A DNA stretch of 64,000 nucleotides from assembly GCA_017462785.1 (NCBI GenBank), contig JAFTQJ010000017.1:2064-66063 (forward strand), in the 5' to 3' direction. A program made the translations under genes and the position numbers. The notes beneath the pieces were generated by a model, which made no database searches, was not told the DNA's origin, and saw only the letters and a list, made by a program, of their open reading frames with translations. The stretch is from Oscillospiraceae bacterium (GTDB taxonomy: Bacteria; Bacillota; Clostridia; Oscillospirales; Ruminococcaceae). Within the stretch, counting starts at the first letter, position 1. The number at the start of each line of letters is the position of its first letter. Positions 43,302 to 61,464 of this stretch are shown here, piece by piece.

Positions 43302-44414
43302 TTACTTACCGCCGAGGATCTCGAAAATATCATCCAGATCATCCATATTCATGGACGGCTTCTGTGCCGGACGGTCGAAATGCAGATCGTCAAGCATCGG
43401 ATTGTCGATCGGAATCACATTTTCCTCTTCCTTCGGAGCTTCCGCAGACTTCACATCATCCTCAAAATCTGCTGCGATCACAGTGATGGTCATTTCATCC
43501 TGCATATCTTCCTTGAATGCAGCACCAAAGATGAACTGTACGTCCGGAGCCGCAGCCTCGGTGATCATCTTGGAAGCAGTATCTACATCGGAAGCGAGTG
43601 TGTCCTCGGACATTGCGATGTTGATGAGGAGTCGTCTTGCACCTGCGATAGAAGTTTCCAGCAGCGGGCTGCTGATGACTGCCTTTGCAGCCTCGGTAGC
43701 CTTGTCCTTGCCGGCACCATGACCGATTGCCATGTGTGCGTAGCCTGCACCCTTCATTGTAGTGGAAACGTCAGCAAAGTCGAGGTTGATATAGCCTTCT
43801 TCTACGATCAGATCTGCAATGCTCTTGACACCGGTCTTGAGGATATCATCGGACAGTGCGAAAGATTCCTTCATGGTCAGGGGCTTTTCCAGACCAACAA
43901 GCAGTCTTTCGTTCGGGATGACGATCAGAGAGTCAACATACTTCTTCAGCTCTGCGATGCCGTTCTCAGCCTGAGCCATTTTCTGCTCACGCTCAAATGC
44001 GAAAGGCTTTGTCACAACAGCAACAGTCAGGATGCCCATTTCCTGTGCAGCCTTTGCTACGACAGGAGCCGCACCTGTACCGGTACCGCCGCCCATACCA
44101 GCGGTGATGAATACCATATCCGCACCCTTGAGAGCTGTTCCGATCTCTTCGATATTCTCCTCTGCACTGTGCTTGCCGACCTCCGGCTTATTACCAGCAC
44201 CTCTGCCCTTTGTCAGCTTCGCACCGATCTGGATGCGGGTTGCTGCCTTGGAATTGTTCAGTGCCTTTGCGTCTGTATTAATTGTTACATACTCAATATC
44301 ACTTACACCGGAATCAACCATACAATTAAGTGCATTGCCGCCGCCGCCGCCGACACCGATTACCTTAATATTAACCTCCGGGTCAAATGCTTCTTCATAG
44401 ATGAAGTCCGTCAT
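43302..44414 (-). CDS. ftsZ: cell division protein FtsZ
   Basis: 370 aa with the tubulin signature GGGTGTGAAPVVA and the N-terminal IKVIGVGGGGGNALN. The conserved C-terminal peptide is DDLDDIFEILGGK. Confidence 0.95.
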   Translation of the reverse strand: MTDFIYEEAFDPEVNIKVIGVGGGGGNALNCMVDSGVSDIEYVTINTDAKALNNSKAATRIQIGAKLTKGRGAGNKPEVGKHSAEENIEEIGTALKGADMVFITAGMGGGTGTGAAPVVAKAAQEMGILTVAVVTKPFAFEREQKMAQAENGIAELKKYVDSLIVIPNERLLVGLEKPLTMKESFALSDDILKTGVKSIADLIVEEGYINLDFADVSTTMKGAGYAHMAIGHGAGKDKATEAAKAVISSPLLETSIAGARRLLINIAMSEDTLASDVDTASKMITEAAAPDVQFIFGAAFKEDMQDEMTITVIAADFEDDVKSAEAPKEEENVIPIDNPMLDDLHFDRPAQKPSMNMDDLDDIFEILGGK

Positions 44415-44488
44415 TATAGTTCCTCCTACCTGCTTTTATTTCCATGTAAAAACACTAAATATCTCACCAGATACCAATACACAGTATT

Positions 44489-44517
44489 ATTTTATCACAT
44501 TCCGGTGGATTTTGCAA
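44489..44517 (-). promoter_or_regulatory. sigma-70 promoter immediately upstream of ftsZ
   Basis: Minus strand reads TTGCAA, a 17-nt spacer ending in TGA, then TAAAAT. It lies in a 192-nt AT-rich spacer between ftsQ and ftsZ. Confidence 0.6.
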
Positions 44518-44606
44518 TACTTTTTTGACAAATTTTCTTTTTTTCCTAATCACACAACTTACAGTTCATATTTTGATGCATTTTTAACAAAAATGCACAT
44601 GAACAT

Positions 44607-45482
44607 TTATTCGTTTTGCGATGTTCCGGTCACGGGATTGCCGGATTCATCAGTCATTCCTTCGGTCGCTTCTTCTGCCGCCTGCTTTCCAGCTTCGACA
44701 TCCGCCTTATTGCGGAAAGAACACTGATTCGTGCCGATCATTGTCAGGTAGCCTTCCTTATCCGCCGGCTGCTTGCTGATGATATGCTGTGCAAAATTGA
44801 TCTTGTATTCGATCTCATCCCAGTTGCCCATATCGAATTCGATGCGGTGATCGAAATTGACGAGGATGTTGTGCACCTCCGTCATATCCACGGAAACGAT
44901 CGGTGCTTCCAGCCCGCCTGCATCAATGATGTCCATGAAAGCATGCAGGATCTTGTCATCACGTTCACGCTCGGAAACGATCCATTTTCCGGCGGTCGGT
45001 TCAAAGGGAGTGTAGCCCTTGATCGTGATCAGCCCATCCTGCGGATCCATGCCGTCCTCCAGGATCTTCCCGTACCGGCTGACGATGAGCGTGCCGAAGC
45101 CGTATACAATATTATAGGTCGGCTCGCATTTCTTCACGTCGATCACAAGCGTATCCGGAAACTGGCGTGTGATGGAGATCTCCTCCACATAGATCAGGCT
45201 GTCAAGTGCCCTCTGCTCTGCCGCTTCAAGGTCCACACGCACCATATTATCTCCGGCGGCGATCCCCGTTGCGGCGGCGATCTCCTCAGCTGAATACATT
45301 TTCGCATCGCCGGTCACCTGTATCTGCTGGATATTGAACATCACTGTCATGGAAAGCGTGATGATGACACCGACCGCCAGTATGATGACCACAAGGGCAT
45401 ACATCGCAAAGCCCCGCCGCCTTCGCCGGATCCTGCGGTAATTCGTTTCATGTGACATGCTGGTTTTTTCTACATCTCTCAT
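44607..45482 (-). CDS. ftsQ: cell division protein FtsQ/DivIB (POTRA domain)
   Basis: 291 aa with a basic N-terminus and a transmembrane helix. A POTRA-like segment follows (IQQIQVTGDAKMYSAEEIAAATGIAAGDNMVRVDL...ISITRQFPDTLVIDVKK). Its position in the dcw cluster supports the call. Confidence 0.75.
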   Translation of the reverse strand: MRDVEKTSMSHETNYRRIRRRRRGFAMYALVVIILAVGVIITLSMTVMFNIQQIQVTGDAKMYSAEEIAAATGIAAGDNMVRVDLEAAEQRALDSLIYVEEISITRQFPDTLVIDVKKCEPTYNIVYGFGTLIVSRYGKILEDGMDPQDGLITIKGYTPFEPTAGKWIVSERERDDKILHAFMDIIDAGGLEAPIVSVDMTEVHNILVNFDHRIEFDMGNWDEIEYKINFAQHIISKQPADKEGYLTMIGTNQCSFRNKADVEAGKQAAEEATEGMTDESGNPVTGTSQNE

Positions 45483-45496: not shown

Positions 45497-46759
45497 TTAT
45501 ACTCTGATGATTTCCGCACCGACGCTTCGCAGCACCTGCTCAGGGCTGTCATATCCCCTGTCGATGTGGTGGATTTCTGTAATGATCGTTTCACCCGCTG
45601 CACAGAGTCCTGCAATCAGCATTGCCGCACCGCCCCGAAGATCGGTCGCCTCCACTGCTGCACCATGCAGACTGCGGACACCGTTGATGACCGCCACTCT
45701 TCCGGCTGTGCGGATGTCCGCACCCATTTTCACAAGGGCATCGACATGACGGAAACGGTTTTCAAAAATAGTTTCCTCTATGACCGTCGTACCGGCAGCA
45801 CAGCAGAGTGCCGCCATCAGGATCGCCTGTGCATCCGTCGGGAAGCCCGGATAGGGCATGGTTTTCAGGGTTCTGACTGCCCGCAGGGGTGCTGCTGCAT
45901 GAAAGCAGATGCTGTCAGCTGAAGCACTCATCCGGCAGTTCATTTCCTCAAAAACCGCAAGGATGCTTTCCAGATCCGAGGCACTCACACAGCGGAGGGA
46001 CAGCTCACCGCCTGCCGCCGCAGCCGCTGCAAGCCACGTTGCAGCAACGATGCGGTCGGGCATGATGCGGTATGTACAGCCATGCAGCTGTTTCACACCA
46101 CGGATCACGATGGTACCCGTTCCCTCACCAGCAATCTGTGCACCGCAGGCACGGAGGAATCTTGCCAGATCAATGATCTCCGGCTCCCGTGCGGCGTTGC
46201 TGATCGTGGTTTCTCCCTTGGCAGTAACTGCGGCAAGGAGAATATTTTCAGTCGCTCCGACGGACGGAAACTGCAAATGGATCCTTGCACCGTGCAGACC
46301 ATTGGGGGTCGTGCAGTGAAGGATGCCGTTTTCCTCGTGGATCTTCACGCCCATCCGCCGCAGTGCCTGCAAGTGCAGGTTGATCGGACGGGGTCCAAGC
46401 TCACAGCCGCCGGGGTAGCCCAGTGTACAGGTGCCCATTCTGCCGAGCACTGCACCAAGAAAAATGATGGATGACCGCATTTCGCACATGAACTGCTCGG
46501 GGATCTCCGAGGAATCCATTCCATGTGCATCGACCGTCACCGTATGCTCCTGCATGCGGCACCGGCAGCCGAGGTTCGTCAGGATCCTGCATGCGGCATA
46601 GACATCGGACAGACGGGGGCAATTCTCCAGCCAGATCTCACCATCACAGAGCAGCGATGCCGCCGCAATGGGCAACGCACTGTTTTTTGCTCCCTGAACG
46701 ATGATCTCTCCCTCCAGATGCCTGCCGCCCTGAATCACTAATTTCTGCATATACGCCAC
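45497..46759 (-). CDS. murA: UDP-N-acetylglucosamine 1-carboxyvinyltransferase
   Basis: 420 aa with GAKNSALPI and the active-site loop [17 protein letters not shown] (Cys present). Confidence 0.9.
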
Positions 46760-46808: not shown

Positions 46809-47933
46809 TTATGCTTTTTTCAGCAGACCCTCAATGACGTTCCAGATGCGTTCCTCCGTGTCGGCAACTGCGAGGGAGGCGGCATTCTGTGCCATGCTCT
46901 GCAGCTTTGCTCTGTCATTGTACAGAGCCTCGATACGGGAGATCATATCCTCAGCGGTGACATTCTTCTGCTCGATCACGATCGCCGCACCTGCCTTGCC
47001 CAGCACATTGGCATTATGGAACTGGTGGTTGCCGGTAACGATCGGGGACGGCACGAGGATGGAGGGCTTGCCGAGTGCTTCCAGCTCTGCAAGCACGGAT
47101 GCACCGGAACGGCAGACCACAAGGTCAGCGGCTGCCATGCAGGTGTCCATGTCGTTGATGTACTCGCTCACACGGATGCGGCTGTTCTTCATGGGAATGC
47201 CGTATTCCTGCATCTTCTGCGGAAAGGTATCCTTGCCCATGCCGCCGTAGCCGTGGATGTGGTTGACTGCCAGACCCTTGGAGGTGTGCCATCTGAGCAC
47301 CTCTGCCATGGTTTCGTTGATGCATCCTGCTCCGAGGCTGCCGCCGAAGGAAAGGATGCAGAAGCTGTCATCAAAGCCAAGCTCCGCCCTTGCCTGTGCA
47401 CGGGATTTCTGTTTCAGCTCCGCACGGACGGGAAGTCCGGTGACGGTGTACTGAATTCCCTTTTCAAAATACTGCAAAGCCTCTTCCACGGTGAGCATGA
47501 CATGATCCACCTCTTTGGCGAGGAGCTTGTTGGTCACACCGGGGAATGCATTCTGCTCATGGATGGCGGTCGGGATGCCCATTTTTGCCGCCATGCGGAT
47601 GATGGGACCTGCAACATAACCGCCCGTTCCGATGGCAATGTCGGGCTTGAATTCATTGATGATCTGCTTGGCACGTCTGCCGGAATTGGCAAGGTACCAG
47701 ACCGCCTTGGCATTGCGTCCAATATTTTCCAGCGAGATCCTCCGCTGGAAGCCAGCCACCTTGATGGGGGCGAGCTTATAGCCTGCCTGCGGCACGAGCT
47801 TTGCCTCCATGCCGTTGGGTGTTCCTGCGAAAAGGAATTCGGCATCGGGGCAATGTGCCTTGATAATGCCTGCGATGGCGAGAGCCGGATTGATATGTCC
47901 GCCCGTACCGCCGCCAGCCAGAAGTACTTTCAT
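46809..47933 (-). CDS. murG: undecaprenyldiphospho-muramoylpentapeptide beta-N-acetylglucosaminyltransferase
   Basis: The N-terminus is MKVLLAGGGTGGHINPALA. The start at M15 of the track ORF is computed from track coordinates, and the upstream ATG at 47975 would overlap ftsW. The C-terminal region reads GASVLAELEALGKPSILVP. Confidence 0.9.
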   Translation of the reverse strand: MKVLLAGGGTGGHINPALAIAGIIKAHCPDAEFLFAGTPNGMEAKLVPQAGYKLAPIKVAGFQRRISLENIGRNAKAVWYLANSGRRAKQIINEFKPDIAIGTGGYVAGPIIRMAAKMGIPTAIHEQNAFPGVTNKLLAKEVDHVMLTVEEALQYFEKGIQYTVTGLPVRAELKQKSRAQARAELGFDDSFCILSFGGSLGAGCINETMAEVLRWHTSKGLAVNHIHGYGGMGKDTFPQKMQEYGIPMKNSRIRVSEYINDMDTCMAAADLVVCRSGASVLAELEALGKPSILVPSPIVTGNHQFHNANVLGKAGAAIVIEQKNVTAEDMISRIEALYNDRAKLQSMAQNAASLAVADTEERIWNVIEGLLKKA

Positions 47934-47974
47934 AGTATCACCTTTCTTTGGAAATGCTGTATTGTCAATGTGCA

Positions 47975-49225
47975 TCAGGCATTCTGCCGGTATTCCGGTT
48001 CGGGAGCTGCGGGCTTTTCAGCCGGCTTGTTCCGTTCGCCGAGCACATAACGCTGTCTTGAAACATTGAGGACGATGCCCATCTGCATGAGCTGCATGAT
48101 AAGTGCGGTACCGCCGTAGCTGAAGAACGGCAGGCTGATACCGGTATTCGGTACAAGACCGCTGACAACTGCCATATTGATGAATGCCTGCAAACCGATC
48201 TGGAGCGTAAAGCCGATGGTGATGAGCATTCCGAAACGATCCCTTGCCTTGGATGCAATGTGGAAGCCCTCGACAACGAGCAGGACAAAGAGCAGAATGA
48301 CGGTGATCGCACCGATCAGACCCAGCTCCTCACATACAACGGCGAAAACGAAGTCGTTCTCCGCTTCGGGGAGGTAGAGGTATTTCTGACGGGATTCACC
48401 GAGTCCCAGACCCAGAGGTCCGCCCGAACCGATGGCGATGAGGGACTGTCTTGACTGCCATGTACCGGCAAGATCCTCGCTCTCAAAGGGGTGCAGCCAT
48501 GTGTTGATTCGTGTGCTGAAATATCCCACGCCGTCAACGACTGTTTTATACACAACAACGCCGACAACTCCCAACGCACCCAGAAAGGCAGCAATGAGAA
48601 GATGCCAGATTCTGGTGCCGCCGATGAACATGAGCACCAGACCGATCACGCAGATCAGAAGTGTACAGGACAGGTGGGGCTGCTGCATTAAAAGCAGGGC
48701 GACCACGCCGAGCAGAACCATGAACGGCAGAATGCCGATAGTCGCTTTTTTCATGCGGTCATAGTTCTTGTCGATCAGGTAGGCAAAGAGGATGACGATT
48801 GAGAATTTCGCCAGCTCCGAGGGTTGGAAGGTCGTAAATCCGAGGTTGATCCATCGCTGACATCCGGTGCCGAGGTCGGTACCGATGAACATGACCAATA
48901 TCAGCATGACGACACTTCCCAGATAGGCAAACAATGCAATGCCGCCACGCTGGAAAATGCGGTAATCCACAAAGGACATGATCAGCATGGCAACAAGTCC
49001 CACGCCGGCAAAAATGAGCTGACGGAATGCATAATAATATCCGTCCTTGCCCTCGTCAATGGCAATCGCATAGCTTGCCGAAAACATCATCAGAATACCA
49101 AGTCCGAGCAGGATCAGCACGACGATGATAAATGTCACGTCCGCATTTCCGAGCCTCGTGTTCTGTTTGACCGGCTCCTGACTTGCTGCACGGGTCCTGC
49201 CCGTGGTTCTTCCATTTGTCTGCAC
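47975..49225 (-). CDS. ftsW: SEDS family peptidoglycan polymerase / lipid II flippase FtsW (FtsW/RodA/SpoVE)
   Basis: 416 aa, polytopic. It starts at a GTG 9 nt after GGGAGG. It has the motifs GSGGPLGLGLGES and LPEAENDFVFAV. Confidence 0.85.
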   Translation of the reverse strand: MQTNGRTTGRTRAASQEPVKQNTRLGNADVTFIIVVLILLGLGILMMFSASYAIAIDEGKDGYYYAFRQLIFAGVGLVAMLIMSFVDYRIFQRGGIALFAYLGSVVMLILVMFIGTDLGTGCQRWINLGFTTFQPSELAKFSIVILFAYLIDKNYDRMKKATIGILPFMVLLGVVALLLMQQPHLSCTLLICVIGLVLMFIGGTRIWHLLIAAFLGALGVVGVVVYKTVVDGVGYFSTRINTWLHPFESEDLAGTWQSRQSLIAIGSGGPLGLGLGESRQKYLYLPEAENDFVFAVVCEELGLIGAITVILLFVLLVVEGFHIASKARDRFGMLITIGFTLQIGLQAFINMAVVSGLVPNTGISLPFFSYGGTALIMQLMQMGIVLNVSRQRYVLGERNKPAEKPAAPEPEYRQNA

Positions 49226-49294: not shown

Positions 49295-50257
49295 TCAAAA
49301 ATTGATCATCATTGCCGCAGCTCCCGTCAATGCTGTGAACCCTGTGAGAACTGCGATCCGCTGCCACGGCTTCATTCCGGCATCCGCCAGATTCTTTTGC
49401 AGTGTGCAGCCATGCTTCCGGAGTGCCGGCAGACGATTGACCGCACAGACCGCTGTGAGAAGCAGCACCGCCATGTGCTGCTGCGTCATCAGACAGACGG
49501 CTGTGATGATGCCGTACATCCAGAAGATGCCGATTTTTCCAAGTCTGCATTTTGCAGGGTGGAGATTCCAGACAAGACAGCCCATGCATGCACCTGCCGC
49601 ACTGAGCGAAAGGAGAGCATACAGATCCTGTGCCTGCTGCATGAACAGCACCGCCGCACAGAGCAGCATCACGCCGCCCACGGAGATCGTGGTGCCGTCC
49701 GGCTCCTCCTCCGGTGCCGCAAGCCAGAGCAGTGCAGTTGCGGCGGCATTCAGCGGAAGATACAGCAGACCTGCATCGTACCGCATAAAGCCAAGCTCCA
49801 GCACGGTGGACTCCATTCCGGCGTACTGCATGAACAGAGCCGTCAGGAGGAACACCGCCAAAAAGTTTGCGATCCGATTGCTGTTTTGCAGCGGTCTTCG
49901 TCGGATCATCCGCCAGTCACAGGCAAAGCCCAGTGCCGCACAGAAGAGTGCAAAGCAGAGAGCCGCACCGATCATCCGCAGCTCCTGCTGTACGGAAACA
50001 GAGGTGCTGTCAAGGATGCGGAAGGTCTGGTAGAGTGTGTAGGTAATTCCTGCACCCGCCAGAGAGCCGAACACCAACAGAAGTCCGCACATCGTCGGAC
50101 GCAGGATGTTTTCGGCGGCTTTCTCTGACTGCTTCGGGGGCGGCTCCGGTTCACAGAATCGCATTTTCTGCAAAAAGGGAACCAACGCTTTCCCGAGTAC
50201 ACCGCTTGCAAGGGCGGCTGTCAATGCCGCTGCAAGCTGGAGCCAGACGGGCATCAT
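49295..50257 (-). CDS. MraY-like polytopic membrane protein with substituted catalytic motifs
   Basis: 320 aa in the canonical mraY slot, with its ATG overlapping the murF stop (ATGA). It shows similarity blocks to MraY (LVPFLQKMRF, RPTMCG, WNLHPAK). The DD, N..N..DG.DG, MGDTGS and HHH blocks read GFACDW, PEEEPDGTTI, RLGKIGI and LRKHGC. Confidence 0.6.
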   Translation of the reverse strand: MMPVWLQLAAALTAALASGVLGKALVPFLQKMRFCEPEPPPKQSEKAAENILRPTMCGLLLVFGSLAGAGITYTLYQTFRILDSTSVSVQQELRMIGAALCFALFCAALGFACDWRMIRRRPLQNSNRIANFLAVFLLTALFMQYAGMESTVLELGFMRYDAGLLYLPLNAAATALLWLAAPEEEPDGTTISVGGVMLLCAAVLFMQQAQDLYALLSLSAAGACMGCLVWNLHPAKCRLGKIGIFWMYGIITAVCLMTQQHMAVLLLTAVCAVNRLPALRKHGCTLQKNLADAGMKPWQRIAVLTGFTALTGAAAMMINF

Positions 50258-51606
50258 GCAGGATAGATCGCTTCGATCGTATGCTCAAGGTGCATGCCGT
50301 GGCTTGCCTTGAACAGTACGCAGTCGCCCTCTTTCAGGGTTTCCTGCAATTTTGCGGCAAGCTCCTGTGCATCCTCCGTGCAGAAGATCTCCAGTGCATC
50401 GCCGGCATTGGCTGCAATGCCCTTTGCCGCACTGCCATAGCAGAACAGCATGTCGATTCCGGCATTCTTTGCCATCTCGCCCACCTTTGCGTGGAGGACT
50501 TCAGAATGCTCACCAAGCTCAAGCATATCGCCGAGAACGGCGATCTTTCTGCCGGTGCACTGGTATCCGCCCAGCACGCTCAGAGCCGCACGCATGGAGT
50601 CGGGGCTGGCGTTGTAGCAGTCCGCAATGACAGTCTGTCCGTTCTTTTCCATGATATTCTGGCGGTTGCCGGTCGGCTGGTATTTTGCCAGTCCGCAGAC
50701 AATCTCCTGCGGTGTCATGCCGGCAATAATGCCCACGATATAGGCAGCCAGTGCATTTTTCACATTATGGATGCCGACGGTCGGCAGTACTGCGAGGATG
50801 GAATGTTCCGCATGATGGATGGTGAACGTTGTCACGCCGTCATCCTCCTTGATGTCATCGGCGTAAACATCCACGCCAACGTGATCCGGAGTTACGGAAT
50901 AGGTCAGCACGGGGCGTTTCAGCTTCTTTTGCAGATCGCAGAGCATCGGATCATCCGCTGAAACGATCAGGGGTGCATCATCCTTCATGCCTTCCAGCAT
51001 TTCAAGCTTTGCCTTGAGGATGCCCTCCTGTGAACCGAGGTGTTCGATGTGGGAATAGCCGATATTGGTAATGACTGCCATGGTCGGCTTGGCACTGCTT
51101 GACATGCGGGAGATCTCACCAAAATGGTTCATTCCCATTTCAATGACTGCCGCACCATGCTCCTTTGTCAGCCCGAAAAGGGTCTTGGGCATGCCGATCT
51201 CATTGTTGAGATTCTGAGCAGTTTTCAGTGTGTTGAATTTCTCGGAGAGCACACAGGCGATCATTTCCTTGGTGGTGGTCTTGCCGACACTGCCGGTCAC
51301 GCCGACCAGCGGAATGCCGAACTGCTCACGGTAGAGGCTCGCAATGTCAAGCAGAGCCTGACCGGTATGCTCAACGACCAGACAGGGCAGATCACCGATC
51401 TGCGTATCGGTCACAGCTGCCACAGCTCCGGCTTCAATCGCCTGCTGTACAAAATCATGTCCGTCAAATCTTGCACCACGCAGTGCCAGAAAGAGGCATC
51501 CCTCCGGAAGCTGGCGTGTATCGGTGCTCACTGCTGTGATCTGTGCATCCAACGGTGCAGCAGTCCCCAGCCTGTCTGCAATCTGTTTCAGGGAAAGCGG
51601 TTCCAT
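50254..51606 (-). CDS. murF: UDP-N-acetylmuramoyl-tripeptide--D-alanyl-D-alanine ligase
   Basis: It is a Mur ligase with GVTGSVGKTTTKEM. I set the start at ATG 51606 (MEPLSLKQIA), 6 nt after AGGAGG and 10 nt after the murE stop. Confidence 0.9.
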   Translation of the reverse strand: MEPLSLKQIADRLGTAAPLDAQITAVSTDTRQLPEGCLFLALRGARFDGHDFVQQAIEAGAVAAVTDTQIGDLPCLVVEHTGQALLDIASLYREQFGIPLVGVTGSVGKTTTKEMIACVLSEKFNTLKTAQNLNNEIGMPKTLFGLTKEHGAAVIEMGMNHFGEISRMSSSAKPTMAVITNIGYSHIEHLGSQEGILKAKLEMLEGMKDDAPLIVSADDPMLCDLQKKLKRPVLTYSVTPDHVGVDVYADDIKEDDGVTTFTIHHAEHSILAVLPTVGIHNVKNALAAYIVGIIAGMTPQEIVCGLAKYQPTGNRQNIMEKNGQTVIADCYNASPDSMRAALSVLGGYQCTGRKIAVLGDMLELGEHSEVLHAKVGEMAKNAGIDMLFCYGSAAKGIAANAGDALEIFCTEDAQELAAKLQETLKEGDCVLFKASHGMHLEHTIEAIYPA

Positions 51607-51616
51607 CCTAATCCTC

Positions 51617-53047
51617 CTATGCCAGCACATTCAGTGCTTCGGCAACAATTTCTCTTTCGTCAAAATGGGTATGACGGTTATTTTCAAAAATCTGGTAGTC
51701 CTCGTGACCCTTGCCGGCAAGTACAATGACATCACCCTTTTCGGCTGTCCGCACCGCATGGAAAATCGCATCACGGCGGTCCGTCACCACATCACGGGGA
51801 ATTGCATTGTCCGCAAGTCCCTCCAGAATGTCGGCAATGATCGCCTCCGGATCTTCATCACGGGGATTGTCGGATGTGATAATGAGCTTATCAGCATACT
51901 TTGCAGCCGCCTGAGCCATCAGCGGACGCTTGGTGCGGTCACGGTTGCCGCCGCATCCGAACAGGCAGATCAGCCTGCCCTCGGTGCAGAGCTTCACATT
52001 CGCCAGAATATTTTCAATGGCATCGGGGGTATGAGCATAGTCGCAGATCACGGAAAAATCACGGTTTGTGGGAATGACCTCGCATCTGCCCTTGACACCG
52101 GTGCAGGTGGAGAGGGATGTGAGGATCTGTTCCGCTGTGAGTCCCATGCTCCGGCATGCGGCATAGGCAGCGGAGGCATTGGCAATATTGAAGCCGCCCG
52201 TCATGTGCATGGAAATGCTCTGCTCGCCGTCGGGAGAACGGAGCACGAACGCTGAACCTGCCGCCTTGATGGACTCTGCGGTGTAGGTGTAGTCCGCATT
52301 CTCGCTGCCGACGCTGTATTTTTCACAGGAGATCTCAGAAAACAGGCGTTTTCCGTAATCGTCCCCGATATTGACAATGGCAGTATCGCAGATGTCAAAC
52401 AGCATCCGCTTGGCATCGTAGTATGCCTCCATGGTCTTGTGGTAGTCAAGGTGATCCTGTGTGAGATTCGTAAACACAGCGGTTCTGAAATGTGTCGGAC
52501 CGATCCGCTTCTGCACCAGACCGAAGGAGGAAACCTCCATCACGACCACATCACAGCCGCTTCTGTACATTCTGTCGTACAGCTGCATCAGCTCAAAGGT
52601 CAGGGGGGTGGTGTTGTTTGTGGGAACAATCTCATCACCGATCTCGTTCTGGATCGTGCCGATCAGACCGACCTTGTGTCCGCAGTCCGTGAGGATGTGC
52701 TTGATGACACTGGTAATGGTGGTCTTGCCGTTCGTGCCGGTCACGCCGATGAACTGCATTTTGCGTTCCGGATGACCGAACCACGCCGCACACAGCTCGC
52801 CATAGCATGCACGGCTGTCTTTCACGAGGATCTGTCTTGCACCCAGTCCCAGATCACGCTCTGCAACAACGGCTGCCGCCCCCTGCTCCAGTGCCTGTGC
52901 AGCAACGGTGTGTCCGTCAAAGCGTTCTCCCTTGACACAGACATAGATGCAGTTTTCAACGATCTTCCGGCTGTCATCGGTGATGGCAGTGATCTCCGCA
53001 TCAGCGATGGCAGGGTCCGTATTCTGAATTAATTCTGCAAGCTTCAT
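51617..53047 (-). CDS. murE: UDP-N-acetylmuramoyl-L-alanyl-D-glutamate--2,6-diaminopimelate ligase
   Basis: It is a Mur ligase with GVTGTNGKTT. The DNPR motif (ITSDNPRDEDP) is the one associated with meso-DAP-adding MurE. I set the start at ATG 53047 (MKLAELIQ) after GGAGG. Confidence 0.9.
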   Translation of the reverse strand: MKLAELIQNTDPAIADAEITAITDDSRKIVENCIYVCVKGERFDGHTVAAQALEQGAAAVVAERDLGLGARQILVKDSRACYGELCAAWFGHPERKMQFIGVTGTNGKTTITSVIKHILTDCGHKVGLIGTIQNEIGDEIVPTNNTTPLTFELMQLYDRMYRSGCDVVVMEVSSFGLVQKRIGPTHFRTAVFTNLTQDHLDYHKTMEAYYDAKRMLFDICDTAIVNIGDDYGKRLFSEISCEKYSVGSENADYTYTAESIKAAGSAFVLRSPDGEQSISMHMTGGFNIANASAAYAACRSMGLTAEQILTSLSTCTGVKGRCEVIPTNRDFSVICDYAHTPDAIENILANVKLCTEGRLICLFGCGGNRDRTKRPLMAQAAAKYADKLIITSDNPRDEDPEAIIADILEGLADNAIPRDVVTDRRDAIFHAVRTAEKGDVIVLAGKGHEDYQIFENNRHTHFDEREIVAEALNVLA

Positions 53048-53092
53048 AGTCAGCCTCCAAATCACAATGTAGATTCCTTTTTGATACCAGCA

Positions 53093-55408
53093 TCAGCCGC
53101 TCTGGTCGTTGACCATGTAGGTCAGCTCAATCACGGTGCCGACCTCGACCTTGTCACCGGGTGCAACGGACTGGCTCTGTACCAGTACATCGCTTCTGTC
53201 AGCGGATGCACCAACGGACACATAGTTCAGTCCCCTGTTGGTCAGTGCGGTGTTCGCATCCCTTGCGGTAAATCTGCGGACATCGGGCACCTCCACATAT
53301 TCCGTGGTATTGTCTGCATCCGTGTACAGGATCACGGTACCGTCCGAAGAAATGGCGGTTCCGGTCAGCGGACACTGCTTAACAATAGTATCCCCATTTC
53401 CCTTGACATCATACTTCAGACCGAGTGCATCAAGCGTGGTGCGTGCTGTGGCAACATCCGTGTCGATCAGCAGCGGCACAACGATGTCAAGCTGTGCATA
53501 TTCCTCCTCCGTGTACTCCGGATAATAACCGAGGTACGGGAGGGCTTCCTCGAGAATGGTTCTCGCATAGGGAGCACATACCACGCTGCCGTAGTAGTTG
53601 ATATTGGTGTTCGGCTCATCCGCCATGATCAGCATGATGATCTCCGGATCGTCAGCCGGTGCAAAGCATGCATAGGATGCAACATACTGCATGTTGTCCT
53701 TGCCGTATTCGTCCAGCTTCTGGGAGGTACCGGACTTGCCGCCGATGGCATAGCCCTTGATATAGGCATTGCTGCCGCCGTTGTTGTCCACGACTGCCTG
53801 TAACAGCTCACGCATGGTCGCAGAGGATTCCTCCGAAATGACCTGACGCTTGACTGTGGTTTCCGTGGTTTCCAGCACGTTGCCGTCACTGGATACGATC
53901 TTGCTGACCACATAGGGTTTGACGAGATAACCGCCGTTGATGGCAGCCGCATAGCCGGTGATCATTTCAATGGGTGTGAGCTTGTTGGACTGACCGAAGG
54001 CACTCGCCGCAAGGTCAACCACGCTCATATTGCTGCCGCTTCTGTAGAAGCTGGTCGCTTCGCCGGGGAGATCGATGCCAGTTTTCTCCGTCAGACCGAA
54101 TGCACGGAAATAGTCGGAGAAACGCTCCACGCCCAGACGCAGACCTGTTTCGATGAAAGCAGGGTTGCAGGAATTGGTCAATGCCTGAGAGAAGGTCTGG
54201 TAGCCGTGTCCTGCAAGCAGATGGCAGTTGATCTTCTCGCCTGCGACCTCCTTGAAACCACTGCAGTTGAAACCGTCCGTTTCCGGATTTACAACACCCT
54301 CTTCCACAGCTGCGGATGCGGTGAATACCTTAAAGACGGAACCCGGAACATACAGCTCCGTGATCGCCTTGTTCTTCCACTGGGTCTCACGGGCTGCGAC
54401 ATATGCATCCCTGTATTCCGACTCCGGCAGCATCAGAAGCTGCTCGGAAACGACGGGGTCATAGATCGTGGAGGGATCATTCAGGTCAAAGCTCGGGTAG
54501 GTTGCCATTGCGTAGATCGCACCGGTCTTGGCGTTCATGATGATGCCGCAGGCACGGTTGCGGACCTCGTAGGTCTGGCACATTTCCTGAAGATTCTTTT
54601 CTAAGTAATATTGCAGTGTGGTATCCAGCGTCAGATACAGGGAGCTGCCATCCTGTGCGGCGTAGGTCGTCGCAAAGCGGTACGGCATGGCGTTGCCCAT
54701 TGCATCGGTTGCAGAGATCACTCTGCCGTCGGTACCGGAGAGGTAGTCATCATAGTAATACTCCAGTCCGTACTGACCCTTGCCGTCACTGTTGGTGAAG
54801 CCGATCACCTGTGCAGCAAGCTCATTCTGCGGATAGTACCGCTTGGTATCCTCCTGTGTGGTGACGGAATTGATGCCGTACTTATCAAAGTACAGTGCCA
54901 GCTCATCCGCAACATTCTTTTCCACCTGTGATTTCAGTACATAGTACTGTGTATCCATTTCCATTGCCTTTGCAATGGTATCCTTGGAGATCTCAAGCTT
55001 CGTGGAAAGCATGGCGATGATCTCCTGCTGGAGTTTTTCGATTGGGATGATCTCCTTACCCTCGGCAAGTGTACCGCCCTCATCAACGATCTTCTGGCGT
55101 TCCTCCATGATCTCAGCGATCGACTCCATCTCCTCACGGTAGAGTGACGGGTCGATGAACACCTTATACACGGTCGCACTCCATGCGAGAGGCGTTCCGT
55201 TTGCGTCATAGATCGTGCCTCTGTTTGCAGAGATGGTGATATTGCTGAAATGCGTACTGTTCGCCATTTCTGCATAATACCGGTGATCCACCACACTCAG
55301 CCAGAACAGACGGACAATGACCATAATCGCTGCAATCATCATTGCAATCAGCACGACCAGATTGGAACGGACTCTCATTTTCTGGGTCGGCTCATGTCTT
55401 ACTGCCAT
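53093..55408 (-). CDS. class B penicillin-binding protein (FtsI/PBP2B/SpoVD type) with two C-terminal PASTA domains
   Basis: It has a transmembrane anchor and the transpeptidase motifs SVFK, SCN and KSGT. Two PASTA-like repeats lie at the C-terminus. I set the start at ATG 55408 (MAVRHEPTQK), 7 nt after GAGGAGG. The track ORF adds 65 implausible codons. Confidence 0.9.
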   Translation of the reverse strand: MAVRHEPTQKMRVRSNLVVLIAMMIAAIMVIVRLFWLSVVDHRYYAEMANSTHFSNITISANRGTIYDANGTPLAWSATVYKVFIDPSLYREEMESIAEIMEERQKIVDEGGTLAEGKEIIPIEKLQQEIIAMLSTKLEISKDTIAKAMEMDTQYYVLKSQVEKNVADELALYFDKYGINSVTTQEDTKRYYPQNELAAQVIGFTNSDGKGQYGLEYYYDDYLSGTDGRVISATDAMGNAMPYRFATTYAAQDGSSLYLTLDTTLQYYLEKNLQEMCQTYEVRNRACGIIMNAKTGAIYAMATYPSFDLNDPSTIYDPVVSEQLLMLPESEYRDAYVAARETQWKNKAITELYVPGSVFKVFTASAAVEEGVVNPETDGFNCSGFKEVAGEKINCHLLAGHGYQTFSQALTNSCNPAFIETGLRLGVERFSDYFRAFGLTEKTGIDLPGEATSFYRSGSNMSVVDLAASAFGQSNKLTPIEMITGYAAAINGGYLVKPYVVSKIVSSDGNVLETTETTVKRQVISEESSATMRELLQAVVDNNGGSNAYIKGYAIGGKSGTSQKLDEYGKDNMQYVASYACFAPADDPEIIMLIMADEPNTNINYYGSVVCAPYARTILEEALPYLGYYPEYTEEEYAQLDIVVPLLIDTDVATARTTLDALGLKYDVKGNGDTIVKQCPLTGTAISSDGTVILYTDADNTTEYVEVPDVRRFTARDANTALTNRGLNYVSVGASADRSDVLVQSQSVAPGDKVEVGTVIELTYMVNDQSG

Positions 55409-55457
55409 ATTCATACCTCCTCGATCCATATTGCCACAGGGCATGCAGAACATGCCC

Positions 55458-55490
55458 AAAATACAAACAGGCAGGTTCATCCCCTGCCTG
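55458..55490 (-). terminator. terminator-like hairpin inside the ftsL-pbp leader (possible attenuator)
   Basis: Minus strand reads CAGGCAGG-ggatgaa-CCTGCCTG followed by TTTGTATTTT. It lies 50-80 nt upstream of the PBP start codon. Confidence 0.4.
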
Positions 55491-55689
55491 TCGTCATTCT
55501 CGTTACTCAAACAGCAAAGTGATCCTATCCTATATCCTGACCGCAGTCCGCCCGGCTTTTCGCCTTTTTTCTGTTTCGGGCGGACAACGGTCAAGCCTTG
55601 CATACACTCGCTGTTATGCCCTTTCCTTCATTGCTGCCGCTGCTGTGCGGAATTACTCAGCAGAGTTCTTTTTTCTAAATCTATGCACC

Positions 55690-56190
55690 CTATCCTCTGA
55701 GATATTCCACTAAATTATTAAACCATGTTTTCATTTTCACAAATACATTCTGCTCCTCATCCGGAATCTCAACAACGTCATTGGTCTGGATCTCGACATA
55801 CTCGATCTGCGAACCGTCAATGGTACGCATACCAAGCACGTTTTCGGCATACTCCTGAATATTTTTGTTGGAGGTCTTGCCGGCAAGTTCGGACTGCATC
55901 CGGACATTTTCGCTCTGGAGGTTCATGTATTCTTGTTTTTTCTCTGTAATCTGATTGCTGATCTGGAGCTGCTGCACGTTGCTGAGTATCACGGCTCCGA
56001 GCAGGGTAAAGCCCAGAAAAACAAGACCGATCACCTTGAAAATGGAAACCTTTTTACCACTGTTGCGTTCCATCTCAAACTGTGCGTTGCCCTTCGGCGG
56101 CTGGGAGATCACGGGCGGTATTTCTGCCGGTGCCGAACTGGAATTGTACTGCACCTGTGTCCTGTTCCCCTGACCATCATAGTACGCCAT
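55690..56190 (-). CDS. ftsL: FtsL-like cell division protein (septum formation initiator type)
   Basis: 166 aa with a single transmembrane helix (IFKVIGLVFLGFTLLGAVIL). A leucine-zipper-like coiled coil follows. Its position between rsmH and the PBP gene supports the call. Confidence 0.6.
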   Translation of the reverse strand: MAYYDGQGNRTQVQYNSSSAPAEIPPVISQPPKGNAQFEMERNSGKKVSIFKVIGLVFLGFTLLGAVILSNVQQLQISNQITEKKQEYMNLQSENVRMQSELAGKTSNKNIQEYAENVLGMRTIDGSQIEYVEIQTNDVVEIPDEEQNVFVKMKTWFNNLVEYLRG

Positions 56191-56196: not shown

Positions 56197-57120
56197 TTAG
56201 CTCCTTTCTATCAATCTCAGCTTTGCACTGCGGCTTCTGTGGTTCTGTTCGAGTTCTTCATCGCATGCCGTCACAGGCTTGCGTACCACAAGTGTTCCCT
56301 TTGGCTTTTTACCGCAGACGCACTGCGGAAAATCCGGCGGGCAGGTGCAGCCGCTGCACCACTTTGCAAATTGCTGCTTGACGATGCGATCCTCCAGTGA
56401 ATGGAACGTGATCACCGCAAGCCTTCCGCCCGGTCTGAGGCACTCGAATGCCGCATCCAGACCGTTTCTCAGATGCCCGAACTCGTCATTGACGGCGATT
56501 CTGATCGCCTGAAATGTTTTCTTGCAGGGGTTCTTGTCCCTGCGGAATTTCTGCGGTATGGAGGCTCGGACGATGTCAGCGAGCTGTCCTGTGCGGGTGA
56601 TCGGCTCGGTTTCCCTTGCCTTCACGATATTTGCCGCAATCTTACCGGCGAATTTCTCCTCGCCGTAATCCCGCAGAATCCTTGCCAGCTCCTGTTCGGG
56701 CCAAGTGCCGACAATGTCCTGTGCACTGACTCCCGTCTGGCTCATCCGCATATCCAGCGGTGCATCGGCATGGTACGAAAATCCACGCTCTGCTTCATCG
56801 AGCTGATGGGAAGAAACGCCCAGATCCATCAGGATCCCGTCCACTTCTGCGATCCCCAGCCCATCGAGAGCCTCCCGCATCTGTGAATAATTGCAGTGCA
56901 CCACCGTTGCCGGAAGTCCACGCAGGCGTTCTGTGGCAGCCTGTACCGCATCCGGATCCCTGTCGAGTCCGATGAGTCTGCCGCCCTCTGTCAGTCTTGA
57001 GGCAATTTCATAGGAGTGCCCCGCACCTCCGACCGTACCGTCCACATAAATGCCGTCCGGTCTGATCGCCAGTCCCTCAATGGTTTCCTGCAAAAGTACA
57101 GGAATATGTACAAAATCCAT
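56197..57120 (-). CDS. rsmH: 16S rRNA (cytosine1402-N4)-methyltransferase
   Basis: HIPVLLQETIEGL, YVDGTVGGAGHS and DLGVSSHQLD motifs are present. I set the start at ATG 57120 (MDFVHIPVLL), 6 nt after AAGGAGG. Confidence 0.9.
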   Translation of the reverse strand: MDFVHIPVLLQETIEGLAIRPDGIYVDGTVGGAGHSYEIASRLTEGGRLIGLDRDPDAVQAATERLRGLPATVVHCNYSQMREALDGLGIAEVDGILMDLGVSSHQLDEAERGFSYHADAPLDMRMSQTGVSAQDIVGTWPEQELARILRDYGEEKFAGKIAANIVKARETEPITRTGQLADIVRASIPQKFRRDKNPCKKTFQAIRIAVNDEFGHLRNGLDAAFECLRPGGRLAVITFHSLEDRIVKQQFAKWCSGCTCPPDFPQCVCGKKPKGTLVVRKPVTACDEELEQNHRSRSAKLRLIERS

Positions 57121-57131
57121 AATCTGCCTCC

Positions 57132-57575
57132 TTACAGGCAAAGTGTATCAAGCTGAGGAACCGATTTCGGATCGAATGATTCGTTCACTCTTTCCCATCT
57201 GTCACGTTCCCAGATCTCCGCTTTTCTTCCCGCACCAATGATGACCACATCCTTTTCCAGCGTAGCATAATCACGCAGGGGCTGCGGAATCAGGATTCTT
57301 CCCTGCTTGTCCGCCGTGATCTCAGAAGCTCCTGAAAACAGCCAGCGACGCAGGCTCTCGCCGCTCGGTCCCGGCAGTGCCGCAACCTGAGAGCAGATCT
57401 CCTTCCAGTGATCCGTTGTGTAAACTGACAGATACTTGTCTCCCGTACCCCGTACCACCCAGAAGGTGTCACCGAGTACTTCTCGCAGTTTTGCAGGAAA
57501 ATTCATGCGTCCCTTGCCATCCACATTATGATAGTATGAACCGGTCATGCCGTCGATGTCAATGCACATATCCAT
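57132..57575 (-). CDS. mraZ: transcriptional regulator MraZ
   Basis: It has two SpoVT/AbrB-like halves: NVDGKGRMNFPAKLRE and ADKQGRILIPQPLRD. The start is uncertain among ATG 57575, 57569 (6 nt after AGGAA) and 57548 (MTGSYYHNVD, which aligns best with other MraZ N-termini). Confidence 0.85.
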   Translation of the reverse strand: MDMCIDIDGMTGSYYHNVDGKGRMNFPAKLREVLGDTFWVVRGTGDKYLSVYTTDHWKEICSQVAALPGPSGESLRRWLFSGASEITADKQGRILIPQPLRDYATLEKDVVIIGAGRKAEIWERDRWERVNESFDPKSVPQLDTLCL

Positions 57576-58101: not shown

Positions 58102-58133
58102 CTAGGGAGTGTTGACACTAGGGAGTGTTGACA
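58102..58133 (+). repeat. perfect 16-bp tandem duplication (CTAGGGAGTGTTGACA x2)
   Basis: 58102-58117 and 58118-58133 are identical, followed by a partial third unit (cta). Each unit carries a TTGACA box. Confidence 0.9.
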
Positions 58134-58140
58134 CTAAAAT
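58112..58140 (+). promoter_or_regulatory. proximal sigma-70 promoter for the glycosyltransferase gene
   Basis: TTGACA of the first repeat unit (58112-58117), then a 17-nt spacer, then TAAAAT (58135-58140). The spacer is the second repeat unit. Confidence 0.55.
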
Positions 58141-58300
58141 AATACGCAGATTTTCAAGCAAAAATTTGATGCAGGCAAGGCGAAAAGGTGCAGGCAGGCT
58201 GTCGCCTGTCAAACCTTTTCAACGCAGGATGCGTGAAATTTTGCCGAAAAGATGCGTTGTTAGGCTTAGTGTCAACACGACCTATAAGAAAGGAGCAAAA

Positions 58301-59886: not shown

Positions 59887-59907
59887 AGATAAATTTGTTG
59901 TTTTTTA

Positions 59908-59936
59908 TTGACAGACCCGTCTGTAAAAAGTATAAT
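59908..59936 (+). promoter_or_regulatory. perfect consensus sigma-70 promoter for the tandem-HEPN gene
   Basis: TTGACA (59908-59913), a 17-nt spacer, then TATAAT (59931-59936). Confidence 0.7.
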
Positions 59937-59969
59937 ATATATAGTATTTCATTTTTGGAGGACAATAAT

Positions 59970-61316: not shown

Positions 61317-61356
61317 ATCCGTCATATTAAACAGGTATACGAGTCTATTCAACAGC

Positions 61357-61397
61357 AAAAACGGCAAACCTCACAAATTGTTTGCCGTTTTCATTTT
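61357..61397 (+). terminator. intrinsic terminator after the tandem-HEPN gene
   Basis: AAAACGGCAAAC-ctcacaaatt-GTTTGCCGTTTT followed by CATTTT. Confidence 0.85.
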
Positions 61398-61402
61398 ACC
61401 CC

Positions 61403-61431
61403 TTGACAAAGTAGCAAAAGTATACTATAAT
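61403..61431 (+). promoter_or_regulatory. perfect consensus sigma-70 promoter (distal pduL promoter)
   Basis: TTGACA (61403-61408), a 17-nt spacer, then TATAAT (61426-61431). Confidence 0.65.
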
Positions 61432-61439
61432 AGAATCAT

Positions 61440-61464
61440 TGTTAGTATCAATTAGATACTAACA
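61440..61464 (+). promoter_or_regulatory. perfect 10-bp inverted repeat at the predicted transcription start (candidate operator)
   Basis: TGTTAGTATC-aatta-GATACTAACA begins 9 nt after the -10 of the 61403 promoter. Confidence 0.45.

What the first reader, a model, noticed from the sequence alone, without database searches (positions are those of the whole stretch)
49295..50257. The ORF in the mraY slot of the dcw cluster has lost the canonical MraY catalytic residues
Seen in sequence:
- The only ORF between murF and ftsW is a 320-aa polytopic protein.
- It is translationally coupled to murF (ATGA overlap).
- It resembles MraY in several blocks: LVPFLQKMRF, RPTMCG versus the usual GTPTMGG, and WNLHPAK versus FN.HPA.

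Established knowledge, from my memory of MraY (PF00953) motifs. The invariant polar residues include the DD of LGF.DDY, the N..N..DG.DG loop, the Asp of MGD(T)GS and the P.HHH.E histidines. Here these blocks read:
- GFACDW (aa 110-115)
- PEEEPDGTTI (aa 182-191)
- RLGKIGI (aa 238-244)
- LRKHGC (aa 279-284)

Inference:
- This is either a catalytically dead MraY paralogue kept in the division operon, perhaps as a scaffold or regulator, or a highly diverged transferase.
- A genuine mraY should then exist elsewhere in the genome.
Basis: partly seen in the sequence, partly recalled or inferred. Interest (0 to 1): 0.65.

Follow-up and report, generated by a model that had tools for sequence, protein, structure and literature searches.

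The report
Catalytically degenerate MraY in dcw cluster
In a clade of uncultured gut Oscillospiraceae, the gene in the slot of the essential cell-wall enzyme MraY still encodes an MraY-shaped membrane protein, conserved and probably transcribed, but it lacks most catalytic residues, so lipid I must come from another, unfound gene or by an unknown mechanism.

Summary
ORF 49295-50257(-), 320 aa, overlaps the murF stop (ATGA). It is a real MraY homologue: hhalign probability is 100%, and the AlphaFold model matches MraY structures at TM 0.75-0.78. It scores only 38.5 bits on TIGR00445 (cut-off 192).

A profile-profile alignment shows what is lost:
- the first Asp of the DD pair
- the Mg2+-binding Asp (now K241)
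- the uracil-stacking Phe (now R238)
- the HHH histidines, with about 27 residues of loop E deleted

About 50 relatives share these losses, including 21 GTDB species, all uncultured herbivore or gut MAGs. All sit in the same murF-X-ftsW-murG slot.

It is not a paralogue. It is the positional orthologue, diverged in place from a Porcipelethomonas-like canonical MraY: 27% identity, where about 70% is expected.

Selection is purifying but relaxed. dN/dS is 0.11-0.31, and dN is about 1.6-5.6 times that of murG, against about 1 in canonical lineages. Constraint has moved from the cytoplasmic loops to TM1, TM2 and TM8.

I found no second canonical mraY, but whole genomes could not be searched. murD's absence from the cluster is normal here. 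At least one unrelated lineage shows an independent degeneration.

Best reading: a non-catalytic MraY-derived protein, with MraY activity encoded elsewhere.

The parts
49295..50257 (-). 320-aa MraY-fold membrane protein lacking the MraY catalytic set (degenerate mraY orthologue)
   Evidence: ORF. TIGR00445 38.5 bits against cut-off 192. hhalign against canonical MraY gives probability 100%. AlphaFold model has pLDDT 82 and pTM 0.83. Foldseek top hits are MraY structures at TM 0.75-0.78. 32 protein clusters and 21 GTDB species carry it.
49913..49930 (-). GFACDW (aa 110-115), in place of GF.DDY. The first Asp of the DD pair is Cys here and is never Asp in the family; the second Asp (D114) is invariant.
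49685..49714 (-). PEEEPDGTTI (aa 182-191), in place of N.TDG.DGL. One Asp-Gly (D187-G188) is invariant and both Asn are lost. An acidic residue (E/D in 86% of sequences) lies four residues upstream.
   Evidence: Which of the two DG pairs is retained depends on the alignment: A1 puts D187-G188 on the first DG, the canonical-clade alignment and hhalign put it on the second.
49526..49570 (-). WNLHPAKCRLGKIGI (aa 230-244), in place of WNLHPAKCFMGDTGS. This is the most conserved block of the family. The uracil-stacking Phe is Arg in 92% of sequences. The Mg2+ Asp is Lys here and is Asp in only 3 of 50 sequences.
49385..49423 (-). LRKHGCTLQKNLA (aa 279-291), the remnant of loop E. About 27 residues are deleted, and P-I-H-H-H-F-E is replaced by T-L-Q-K-N-L-A.
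50254..50257 (-). ATGA overlap of the murF stop and the ORF start (translational coupling)
50254..51630 (-). murF (UDP-MurNAc-pentapeptide synthetase), upstream partner
   Evidence: ORF. Mur_ligase domains in the syntenic gene of relatives. 68-88% identity across the clade.
47975..49225 (-). ftsW/spoVE-type SEDS protein, downstream neighbour
46809..47975 (-). murG (lipid II synthase). It needs lipid I, and its strong conservation shows the pathway is in use.
51617..53065 (-). murE

Best explanation
This is the orthologue of mraY. In the ancestor of a clade of uncultured Oscillospiraceae it stopped being a phospho-MurNAc-pentapeptide transferase and was kept as a non-catalytic MraY-fold membrane protein.

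Shown:
- It keeps the ten-helix MraY fold.
- It keeps the operon slot and the translational coupling to murF.
- It has lost two of the three essential Asp residues of the DDD motif, the uracil-pocket Lys and Phe, the loop E histidines and most of loop E.
- Selection on the cytoplasmic active-site loops has collapsed. TM1, TM2, TM8 and the LHPAKCRLG turn stay conserved.

Inferred:
- Lipid I is made by another gene that is not linked to the dcw cluster. This could be a second MraY or another polyprenyl-phosphate phosphosugar transferase.
- This protein now works through its membrane surfaces and its remodelled, more basic pocket (R238, R53, R119-121, with D114 and D187 invariant). It may act as a docking or regulatory subunit for the precursor pathway. 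Possible partners are the active transferase (as a heterodimer), MurF, MurG or FtsW. It may also bind an undecaprenyl-(pyro)phosphate intermediate without turning it over.
For: Homology and fold.

Loss of catalytic positions in about 50 sequences. These positions are described as critical in PMC6606608, which covers the DDD motif D117/D118/D265, D265 as the Mg2+ ligand, the uracil pocket K70/G194/L195/D196/F262, and H324/H325 of loop E.

Orthology in place:
- The same mraZ-rsmH-ftsL-pbp-murE-murF-X-ftsW-murG-murA-ftsQ-ftsZ order occurs in variant and canonical lineages.
- The best canonical match is the nearest outgroup's slot gene, at 103 bits.

Retained function:
- The ORF is intact wherever a contig end does not cut it, in 19 of 21 GTDB species loci.
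- dN/dS is 0.11-0.31.

Relaxed and shifted constraint:
- dN is 1.6-5.6 times that of murG, against a median of 0.98 in canonical lineages.
- Identity to the window is 34-65%, while MurG is 79-93%.
- Loop conservation is 0.3-0.55 against 0.9-1.0 in canonical MraY, while TM1 is 0.76 against 0.72.

Pathway still needed: murE, murF, murG and ftsW are under strong purifying selection.

Transcription: metatranscriptome contigs cover the gene and the murF junction.
Against: - No second mraY or other PNPT gene was found anywhere I could look, so the central inference is unverified.
- Two acidic residues (D114, D187) and K236, R238 and H233 remain near-invariant at the old active site. A pure scaffold would not obviously need them.
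- No partner protein has been identified.
- All carriers are MAGs, so nothing is known about phenotype.
- The metatranscriptome evidence comes from low-depth contigs that could include DNA.
Confidence: 0.55

Rival explanations
1. It is still an enzyme, but neofunctionalised. It uses the retained D114, D187, E183, H233 and K236 and the new R238 to act on a different substrate or reaction at the membrane face. One example would be a Mg2+-independent transfer or hydrolysis involving an undecaprenyl-(pyro)phosphate-linked intermediate. MraY activity is then supplied elsewhere.
For: A subset of active-site-face residues is invariant or nearly so in 50 sequences. New residues are fixed at former substrate-contact positions: Phe to Arg in 92%, Ser to Pro277 in 100%, Pro to Thr285 in 90%. 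The LHPAKCRL turn is 94% conserved.
Against: Most of the pocket-forming loops vary freely, with conservation of 0.3-0.55. The positions of D117 and D265 take almost any residue. Loop E is deleted. No new invariant His, Asp or Glu cluster appears.
Confidence: 0.2
2. It is the only MraY of these bacteria and still makes lipid I with a radically remodelled active site.
For: It occupies the mraY slot and is translationally coupled to murF. The rest of the pathway is intact. No other mraY was found in any partial search. IMG names members of the family MraY.
Against: Two of the three Asp residues described as critical for activity are lost, along with the Mg2+ ligand, the uracil pocket and the loop E histidines. 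Those positions are not replaced by any conserved alternative. The protein evolves about 4 times faster relative to MurG than true MraYs do. That is not expected of an essential single-copy enzyme.
Confidence: 0.08
3. It is a decoy or shield. This would be an inactive MraY look-alike that soaks up MraY-targeting agents, such as phage single-gene lysis proteins or nucleoside antibiotics, or blocks their access to the real enzyme.
For: The fold and TM surfaces are kept while catalysis is lost. The degeneration recurs independently in another lineage, which fits a recurrent selective pressure.
Against: The uridine pocket that nucleoside inhibitors bind is not conserved. No homologue occurs on phages or plasmids. 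No defence genes are linked to it. This reading is purely speculative.
Confidence: 0.05
4. It is a decaying gene with no function, or an annotation or assembly artefact.
For: It evolves faster than all its neighbours.
Against: The reading frame is intact across a clade whose synonymous sites are saturated. dN/dS is well below 1. Start-stop coupling is conserved. Independent assemblies from NCBI, JGI, ENA and Logan carry the same protein. DNA contigs from several runs match it at over 97% identity.
Confidence: 0.02

Closest known systems
MraY, phospho-N-acetylmuramoyl-pentapeptide transferase (TIGR00445, PF00953; structures 4J72, 5CKR, 5JNQ, 6OYH)
   Same: Common ancestry (hhalign probability 100%). 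Same ten-helix fold (TM 0.75-0.78). Same slot between murF and ftsW. Retained PTM.G, the second Asp of DD, one DG pair and the W.LHPAK block.
   Different: Scores 24-38 bits where the curated cut-off is 192. Lacks the first DD Asp, the Mg2+ Asp, the uracil-pocket Lys and Phe, the HHH motif and about 27 residues of loop E. The conservation pattern is inverted: helices are conserved and cytoplasmic loops are not.
Canonical MraY of Porcipelethomonas and neighbouring Ruminococcus/Oscillospiraceae lineages (L028, L034, L038, L029, L039)
   Same: Nearest relatives by MurG (66-75% identity). Identical dcw gene order. Shared lineage-specific Cys in GGC.G and in HPAKC.
   Different: They keep every catalytic motif and score 257 bits on TIGR00445. 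Their MraY is 27-28% identical to the window protein, where about 70% would be expected from MurG divergence.
Other PNPT superfamily members (WecA, TagO, human DPAGT1)
   Same: Same superfamily fold. DPAGT1 structures are the next Foldseek hits (TM 0.60-0.70).
   Different: From my own knowledge, those enzymes keep the DD pair and the Mg2+ Asp. The window protein is closer to MraY than to any of them.
Other degenerate MraY-like clusters in metagenomes (P0341/P0343, P0367/P0399/P0412, P0383/P0388/P0435/P0460, P0365, P0380/P0400)
   Same: Full-length MraY homologues missing part of the DDD/HHH set. All are below the TIGR00445 cut-off. P0341 also sits in the mraY slot.
   Different: They are not close to the window family (23-29% identity among the nearest listed matches). 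The P0341 lineage is phylogenetically separate (MurG 57-60%), so that loss is independent. Their losses are different and often partial.
Catalytically dead enzyme paralogues that regulate an active partner (for example the AdoMetDC prozyme, PMC5201418, seen)
   Same: Enzyme fold retained, catalytic residues lost, purifying selection maintained.
   Different: Here the dead copy is the orthologue in the ancestral operon position, not a duplicate. No active partner has been identified.

Membership tests
MraY (TIGR00445 equivalog / PF00953) | Profile score above the curated cut-off | tested here: not met
   TIGR00445 38.5 bits against 192.05. PF00953 22.2 bits against 27. Relatives score 24-36 bits, while the neighbouring canonical MraY scores 257.5.
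MraY (TIGR00445 equivalog / PF00953) | Ten-transmembrane MraY/PNPT fold | tested here: met
   AlphaFold model with pLDDT 82 and pTM 0.83. Foldseek finds 34 hits at E<=1e-3, all MraY or DPAGT1, with best TM 0.78.
MraY (TIGR00445 equivalog / PF00953) | DD pair at the cytoplasmic end of TM4 (Aquifex D117, D118) | tested here: not met
   The first Asp is Cys in the window and A/T/V/S/I/E and others in the family, never Asp. The second Asp is 100% conserved.
MraY (TIGR00445 equivalog / PF00953) | Mg2+-coordinating Asp in F/MGD.GS (Aquifex D265) | tested here: not met
   Lys in the window. K/N/R/S/A and others in the family, with Asp in 3 of 50 sequences.
MraY (TIGR00445 equivalog / PF00953) | N..N.TDG.DG loop C, including uracil-pocket G-L-D | tested here: not met
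   Both Asn residues are lost. Only one Asp-Gly is kept and is invariant. Which of the two it corresponds to depends on the alignment.
MraY (TIGR00445 equivalog / PF00953) | Loop E helix with P.HHH.E | tested here: not met
   About 27 residues are deleted and no His occupies the three positions: Q-K-N in the window.
MraY (TIGR00445 equivalog / PF00953) | Position in the dcw cluster after murF and before ftsW | tested here: met
   Window and the related loci whose flanks reach those genes.
MraY (TIGR00445 equivalog / PF00953) | Transfers phospho-MurNAc-pentapeptide to undecaprenyl phosphate | not testable with these tools
   Needs complementation or an in vitro lipid I assay.
Pseudoenzyme (non-catalytic homologue of an enzyme) | Clear homology to an enzyme family with loss of residues required for catalysis | tested here: met
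   The requirement for these residues is taken from PMC6606608.
Pseudoenzyme (non-catalytic homologue of an enzyme) | Maintained by purifying selection, so not a pseudogene | tested here: met
   dN/dS 0.11-0.31 over 15 genome pairs. ORF intact in 19 of 21 species loci; the other two are cut by contig ends.
Pseudoenzyme (non-catalytic homologue of an enzyme) | The original activity is provided by another gene in the same genome | tested here: inconclusive
   None found in the window, in +-10 kb of 21 loci, among 8 looked-up canonical MraY proteins (all in their own dcw slot), or among 80 metagenome loci. Whole genomes could not be searched.

The most novel reading that the evidence does not exclude
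The clade, and possibly several other uncultured Oscillospirales lineages with independently degenerate slot genes, has no canonical MraY at all. Lipid I would then be made either by this remodelled protein through a mechanism that does not use the DDD/HHH set, or by an as yet unrecognised enzyme that has displaced MraY.
Probability: 0.1. Interest if true: 0.95.

Novelty: new variant of a known kind. Interest (0 to 1): 0.64.

Why it matters
- **Essential enzyme.** MraY is regarded as a universal, essential, single-copy step of peptidoglycan synthesis and a drug target. A whole clade has a conserved, catalytically stripped orthologue in the dcw-encoded slot. That clade spans at least 21 GTDB species and about 94 MurG clusters, and at least one unrelated lineage shows the same thing.
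- **Two possible meanings.** Either an unrecognised division of labour exists, with a non-catalytic MraY subunit plus an unlinked transferase. Or, less likely, there is a different way of making lipid I. Both are testable by complementation and by closing one genome.
- **Practical consequence.** From my memory, TIGR00445 is one of the bac120 marker genes. If so, these genomes will systematically appear to lack it, and automatic annotation already disagrees: IMG names the protein MraY and PGAP calls it hypothetical.

Tried and rejected
**Rejected**
- Misalignment: the profile-profile alignment reproduces the hand alignment.
- Pseudogene or artefact: rejected by dN/dS, intact ORFs and multiple independent assemblies.
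- Inserted paralogue or foreign gene: rejected by identical synteny and by the best canonical match being the nearest outgroup's slot gene. GC and GC3 are like the neighbours.
- murD absence as part of the anomaly: canonical relatives lack it too.
- P0326, the canonical MraY scoring highest against the variant profile (175 bits): it sits in its own dcw slot in a distant lineage with MurG 57% identical.

**Searches for a second mraY that led nowhere**
- tblastn of the window and of 26 loci.
- Search with the Porcipelethomonas MraY, then a context look-up of 5 sequence groups; all sit in dcw slots.
- The 'longest contig' fingerprint, which found no canonical MraY cluster on a variant-bearing contig.
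- NCBI accession proximity.
- A metagenome scan with the lineage-specific HPAKCFM motif. Of 80 loci, 78 were flanked by murE/murF and/or ftsW on the sequence available. The two exceptions were a different arrangement (L112) and a frameshift-ridden contig (L113).
- Looking for an isolate: all runs holding the sequence are metagenomes.
- Matching contig depth across runs: no HHH-motif contig showed the 15.7/8.4/10x profile, but only 8 pieces per run are shown.
- Plasmid and phage collections: no hit.
- Literature: no report of a degenerate MraY.

Full report
**Observation**

The window carries a dcw cluster on the minus strand:

| Gene | Coordinates |
|---|---|
| mraZ | 57132-57575 |
| rsmH | 56197-57141 |
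| ftsL-like | 55690-56190 |
| PBP | 53093-55603 |
| murE | 51617-53065 |
| murF | 50254-51630 |
| the ORF in question | 49295-50257 |
| ftsW | 47975-49225 |
| murG | 46809-47975 |
| murA homologue | 45497-46759 |
| ftsQ | 44607-45482 |
| ftsZ | 43302-44414 |

The ORF's ATG overlaps murF's TGA as ATGA.

**Is it MraY?**

- Sequence profiles see only a weak relationship. PF00953 gives 22.2 bits against a gathering score of 27. TIGR00445 gives 38.5 bits against a cut-off of 192. The best solved-structure sequence hit is MraY 5jnq at E 1e-4.
- The canonical MraY of the nearest outgroup scores 257.5 bits on TIGR00445.
- Homology itself is not in doubt. hhalign of 32 family members against 24 canonical MraYs gives probability 100%, E 2e-42, over 319 columns.
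- An AlphaFold model (pLDDT 82, pTM 0.83) matches MraY crystal and cryo-EM structures at TM 0.75-0.78 with 14-17% identity. Only MraY and DPAGT1 are significant hits.

**Catalytic positions**

PMC6606608 describes the following for Aquifex MraY:
- D265 is the Mg2+ ligand.
- K70, G194, L195, D196 and F262 form the uracil pocket.
- H324 and H325 lie in loop E.

In the profile-profile alignment and in column counts over about 50 family sequences:

| Canonical position | Window | Family |
|---|---|---|
| D117 | Cys | never Asp |
| D118 | D114 | invariant Asp |
| D265 | Lys | K/N/R/S/A and others; Asp in 3 of 50 |
| F262 | Arg | Arg in 92% |
| K70 | Asn | variable |
| HHH positions | Q-K-N | no His conserved at any of the three positions |

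One Asp-Gly (D187-G188) is invariant. hhalign places it on the second DG (the D196 position), while another alignment (A1) placed it on the first. About 27 residues of loop E are missing.

**Family and distribution**

- A word-indexed search found 32 clusters at 36-98% identity. All are unnamed or 'hypothetical protein' from Ruminococcus sp. or Oscillospiraceae MAGs.
- A scan of one genome per GTDB species found 21 species, all uncultured MAGs from sheep, buffalo, rabbit, rumen and gut. That scan stopped at 80 pattern matches, so 21 is a lower bound.
- An exhaustive profile search of 50%-identity representatives gives 14 full-length family representatives above 228 bits. Scores then drop to canonical MraYs at or below 175 bits.
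- A search with the window's MurG lists about 94 clusters at 77% identity or more. That range defines the carrier clade.
- Every locus examined has the same gene order. Nearly all have the murF stop overlapping the ORF start.

**Origin**

- A locus whose MurG is 78% identical to the window's (L027) carries a still more diverged family member, with no Pfam hit.
- The next lineage out, at 75% MurG identity (L028, Porcipelethomonas), has a fully canonical MraY in the same slot: DDY, NLTDGVDG, HPAKCFMGDTGS, PIHHHFE.
- That protein is by far the window protein's best canonical match: 103 bits, against 52 for another canonical MraY. It shares the lineage-specific Cys residues.
- In canonical lineages, MraY identity tracks MurG identity minus about 5 points. 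About 70% would therefore be expected, and 27% is observed.
- The protein is thus the positional orthologue, diverged in place, not a paralogue.
- murD is absent from the cluster in canonical relatives too. It is also not part of the Clostridia DCW1 cluster described in PMC8136486.

**Selection**

- Nei-Gojobori dN/dS over 15 genome pairs is 0.11-0.31 for the ORF. In the same pairs it is 0.03-0.16 for murE, murF, ftsW and murG.
- dN is 1.6-5.6 times that of murG. In 11 pairs of canonical lineages the mraY/murG dN ratio has a median of 0.98, range 0.63-1.5.
- Constraint has moved. In canonical MraYs the cytoplasmic loops are the most conserved parts (0.9-1.0). In the family they fall to 0.3-0.55, except LHPAKCRL (0.94) and LRPT (0.82).
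- TM1 (0.76 against 0.72), TM2 (0.68 against 0.71) and TM8 (0.73 against 0.82) hold up.

**Expression**

Metatranscriptome contigs at 95% identity or more cover 49313-49587 and 49675-50088 in one run. In another they span the murF/ORF junction (49993-50427). Depths are like those of the neighbours. This evidence is weak, because the contigs are low-depth and DNA carry-over is possible.

**The second mraY**

This is the crux, and I could not settle it. All of the following were negative:
- The 64-kb window.
- +-10 kb around 21 species loci.
- The canonical MraY proteins looked up: P0033, plus members of five of the 20 sequence groups found with the Porcipelethomonas query, plus P0326. All sit in their own dcw slot.
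- Shared-contig fingerprints.
- 80 metagenome loci with the lineage-typical HPAKCFM motif. Of these, 78 are flanked by murE/murF and/or ftsW on the sequence available.
- Abundance matching in three runs where the organism sits at 15.7, 8.4 and about 10x.

None of these searches a whole genome. All runs holding the sequence are complex metagenomes. Absence is therefore not shown.

**Wider pattern**

The exhaustive profile search also surfaced other full-length MraY homologues that miss part of the catalytic set. They form several unrelated groups, two of them with 38 and 49 member sequences. All are below the TIGR00445 cut-off. One of them (P0341: RD, HMGKTG) again sits in the mraY slot, next to a fused MurE-MurF. 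Its MurG is only 57-60% identical to every other lineage, and canonical-bearing lineages lie between it and the window's clade. Degeneration of the slot gene has therefore happened at least twice.

**Interpretation**

- murE, murF, murG and ftsW are under strong purifying selection, so lipid I must be made.
- The ORF lacks two of the three Asp residues reported as critical, the Mg2+ ligand, the uracil pocket and loop E. Those positions vary freely. I therefore judge it inactive as MraY (inference from established residue roles).
- The most economical reading is a pseudoenzyme retained for a non-catalytic role, with the activity supplied by an unlinked gene.
- The conserved helices, the invariant D114 and D187, and the gain of basic residues at the old pocket suggest two possible roles. 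One is partner binding, possibly heterodimerisation, since MraY is a dimer (my own knowledge). The other is binding of an undecaprenyl-(pyro)phosphate ligand.
- These last steps are inference. No tool result bears on them directly.

**Novelty**

I found no report of a catalytically degenerate MraY orthologue. It is a new variant of a known kind, an MraY/PNPT-fold pseudoenzyme or neofunctionalised derivative. There is a small but real chance of something larger if no other transferase exists.

Noticed in passing
L121 5494-6492 and L122 3099-4097 (protein P0341): A second, phylogenetically separate lineage (MurG 57-60% identical to all others) also has a degenerate MraY in the dcw slot (RD for DD, HMGKTG for FMGDTG, partial HH). 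This implies an independent loss.
   Followed up: partly
L121 2551-5436, L122 156-3041: A single 961-aa ORF with two consecutive Mur ligase domain sets, an apparent MurE-MurF fusion, lies directly upstream of that degenerate MraY.
   Followed up: no
database proteins P0343, P0365, P0367, P0380, P0383, P0388, P0391, P0399, P0400, P0412, P0435, P0457, P0460: Several further groups of full-length MraY homologues lack part of the DDD/HHH set. P0435 has 49 member sequences and P0365 has 38. The three of these scanned (P0341, P0435, P0365) score 45-133 bits on TIGR00445.
   Followed up: partly
window 59895-61316 (+), island about 59900-61450: A 1.5-kb low-GC island (GC 0.32-0.35 against about 0.53) holds a 473-aa ORF. 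It has only weak hits, to HEPN_Swt1 (18.9 bits) and to the PADLOC candidate PDC-M34B (25 bits). It may be a horizontally acquired defence-like gene.
   Followed up: partly
window 43302-45482: ftsQ is followed directly by ftsZ with no ftsA between them, in the window and in related loci. A murA homologue (45497-46759) sits inside the cluster between murG and ftsQ.
   Followed up: no
window 41541-43061 (-): A 506-aa protein with no Pfam domain, only weak coiled-coil-type hits, lies immediately after ftsZ. A gene of similar size with no Pfam hit occupies the same position after ftsZ in variant and canonical relatives (L001, L027, L028, L034).
   Followed up: no
window 58109-59842 (+); L001 340-1878: A PMT_2-family (ArnT-like, polyprenyl-phosphate-sugar dependent) glycosyltransferase lies just upstream of mraZ in the window and in L001. 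It is absent from the canonical outgroups L029, L031 and L034.
   Followed up: no
L113 4500-11000 (VOFD01002795.1): A Porcipelethomonas-like dcw cluster is broken into many short ORFs, with mraY matched over only 83 aa. This is most likely a frameshift-rich assembly rather than biology.
   Followed up: partly
protein clusters: Annotation conflict: IMG names members of the variant family 'phospho-N-acetylmuramoyl-pentapeptide-transferase', while NCBI PGAP calls the same cluster 'hypothetical protein'.
   Followed up: no
L029 8403-9845, L031 8545-9975, L039 8502-9935, L120 4685-6142: In several canonical Ruminococcus-type lineages only one Mur ligase gene precedes mraY, so murF is not in the cluster there. 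The dcw content varies considerably within this family.
   Followed up: no
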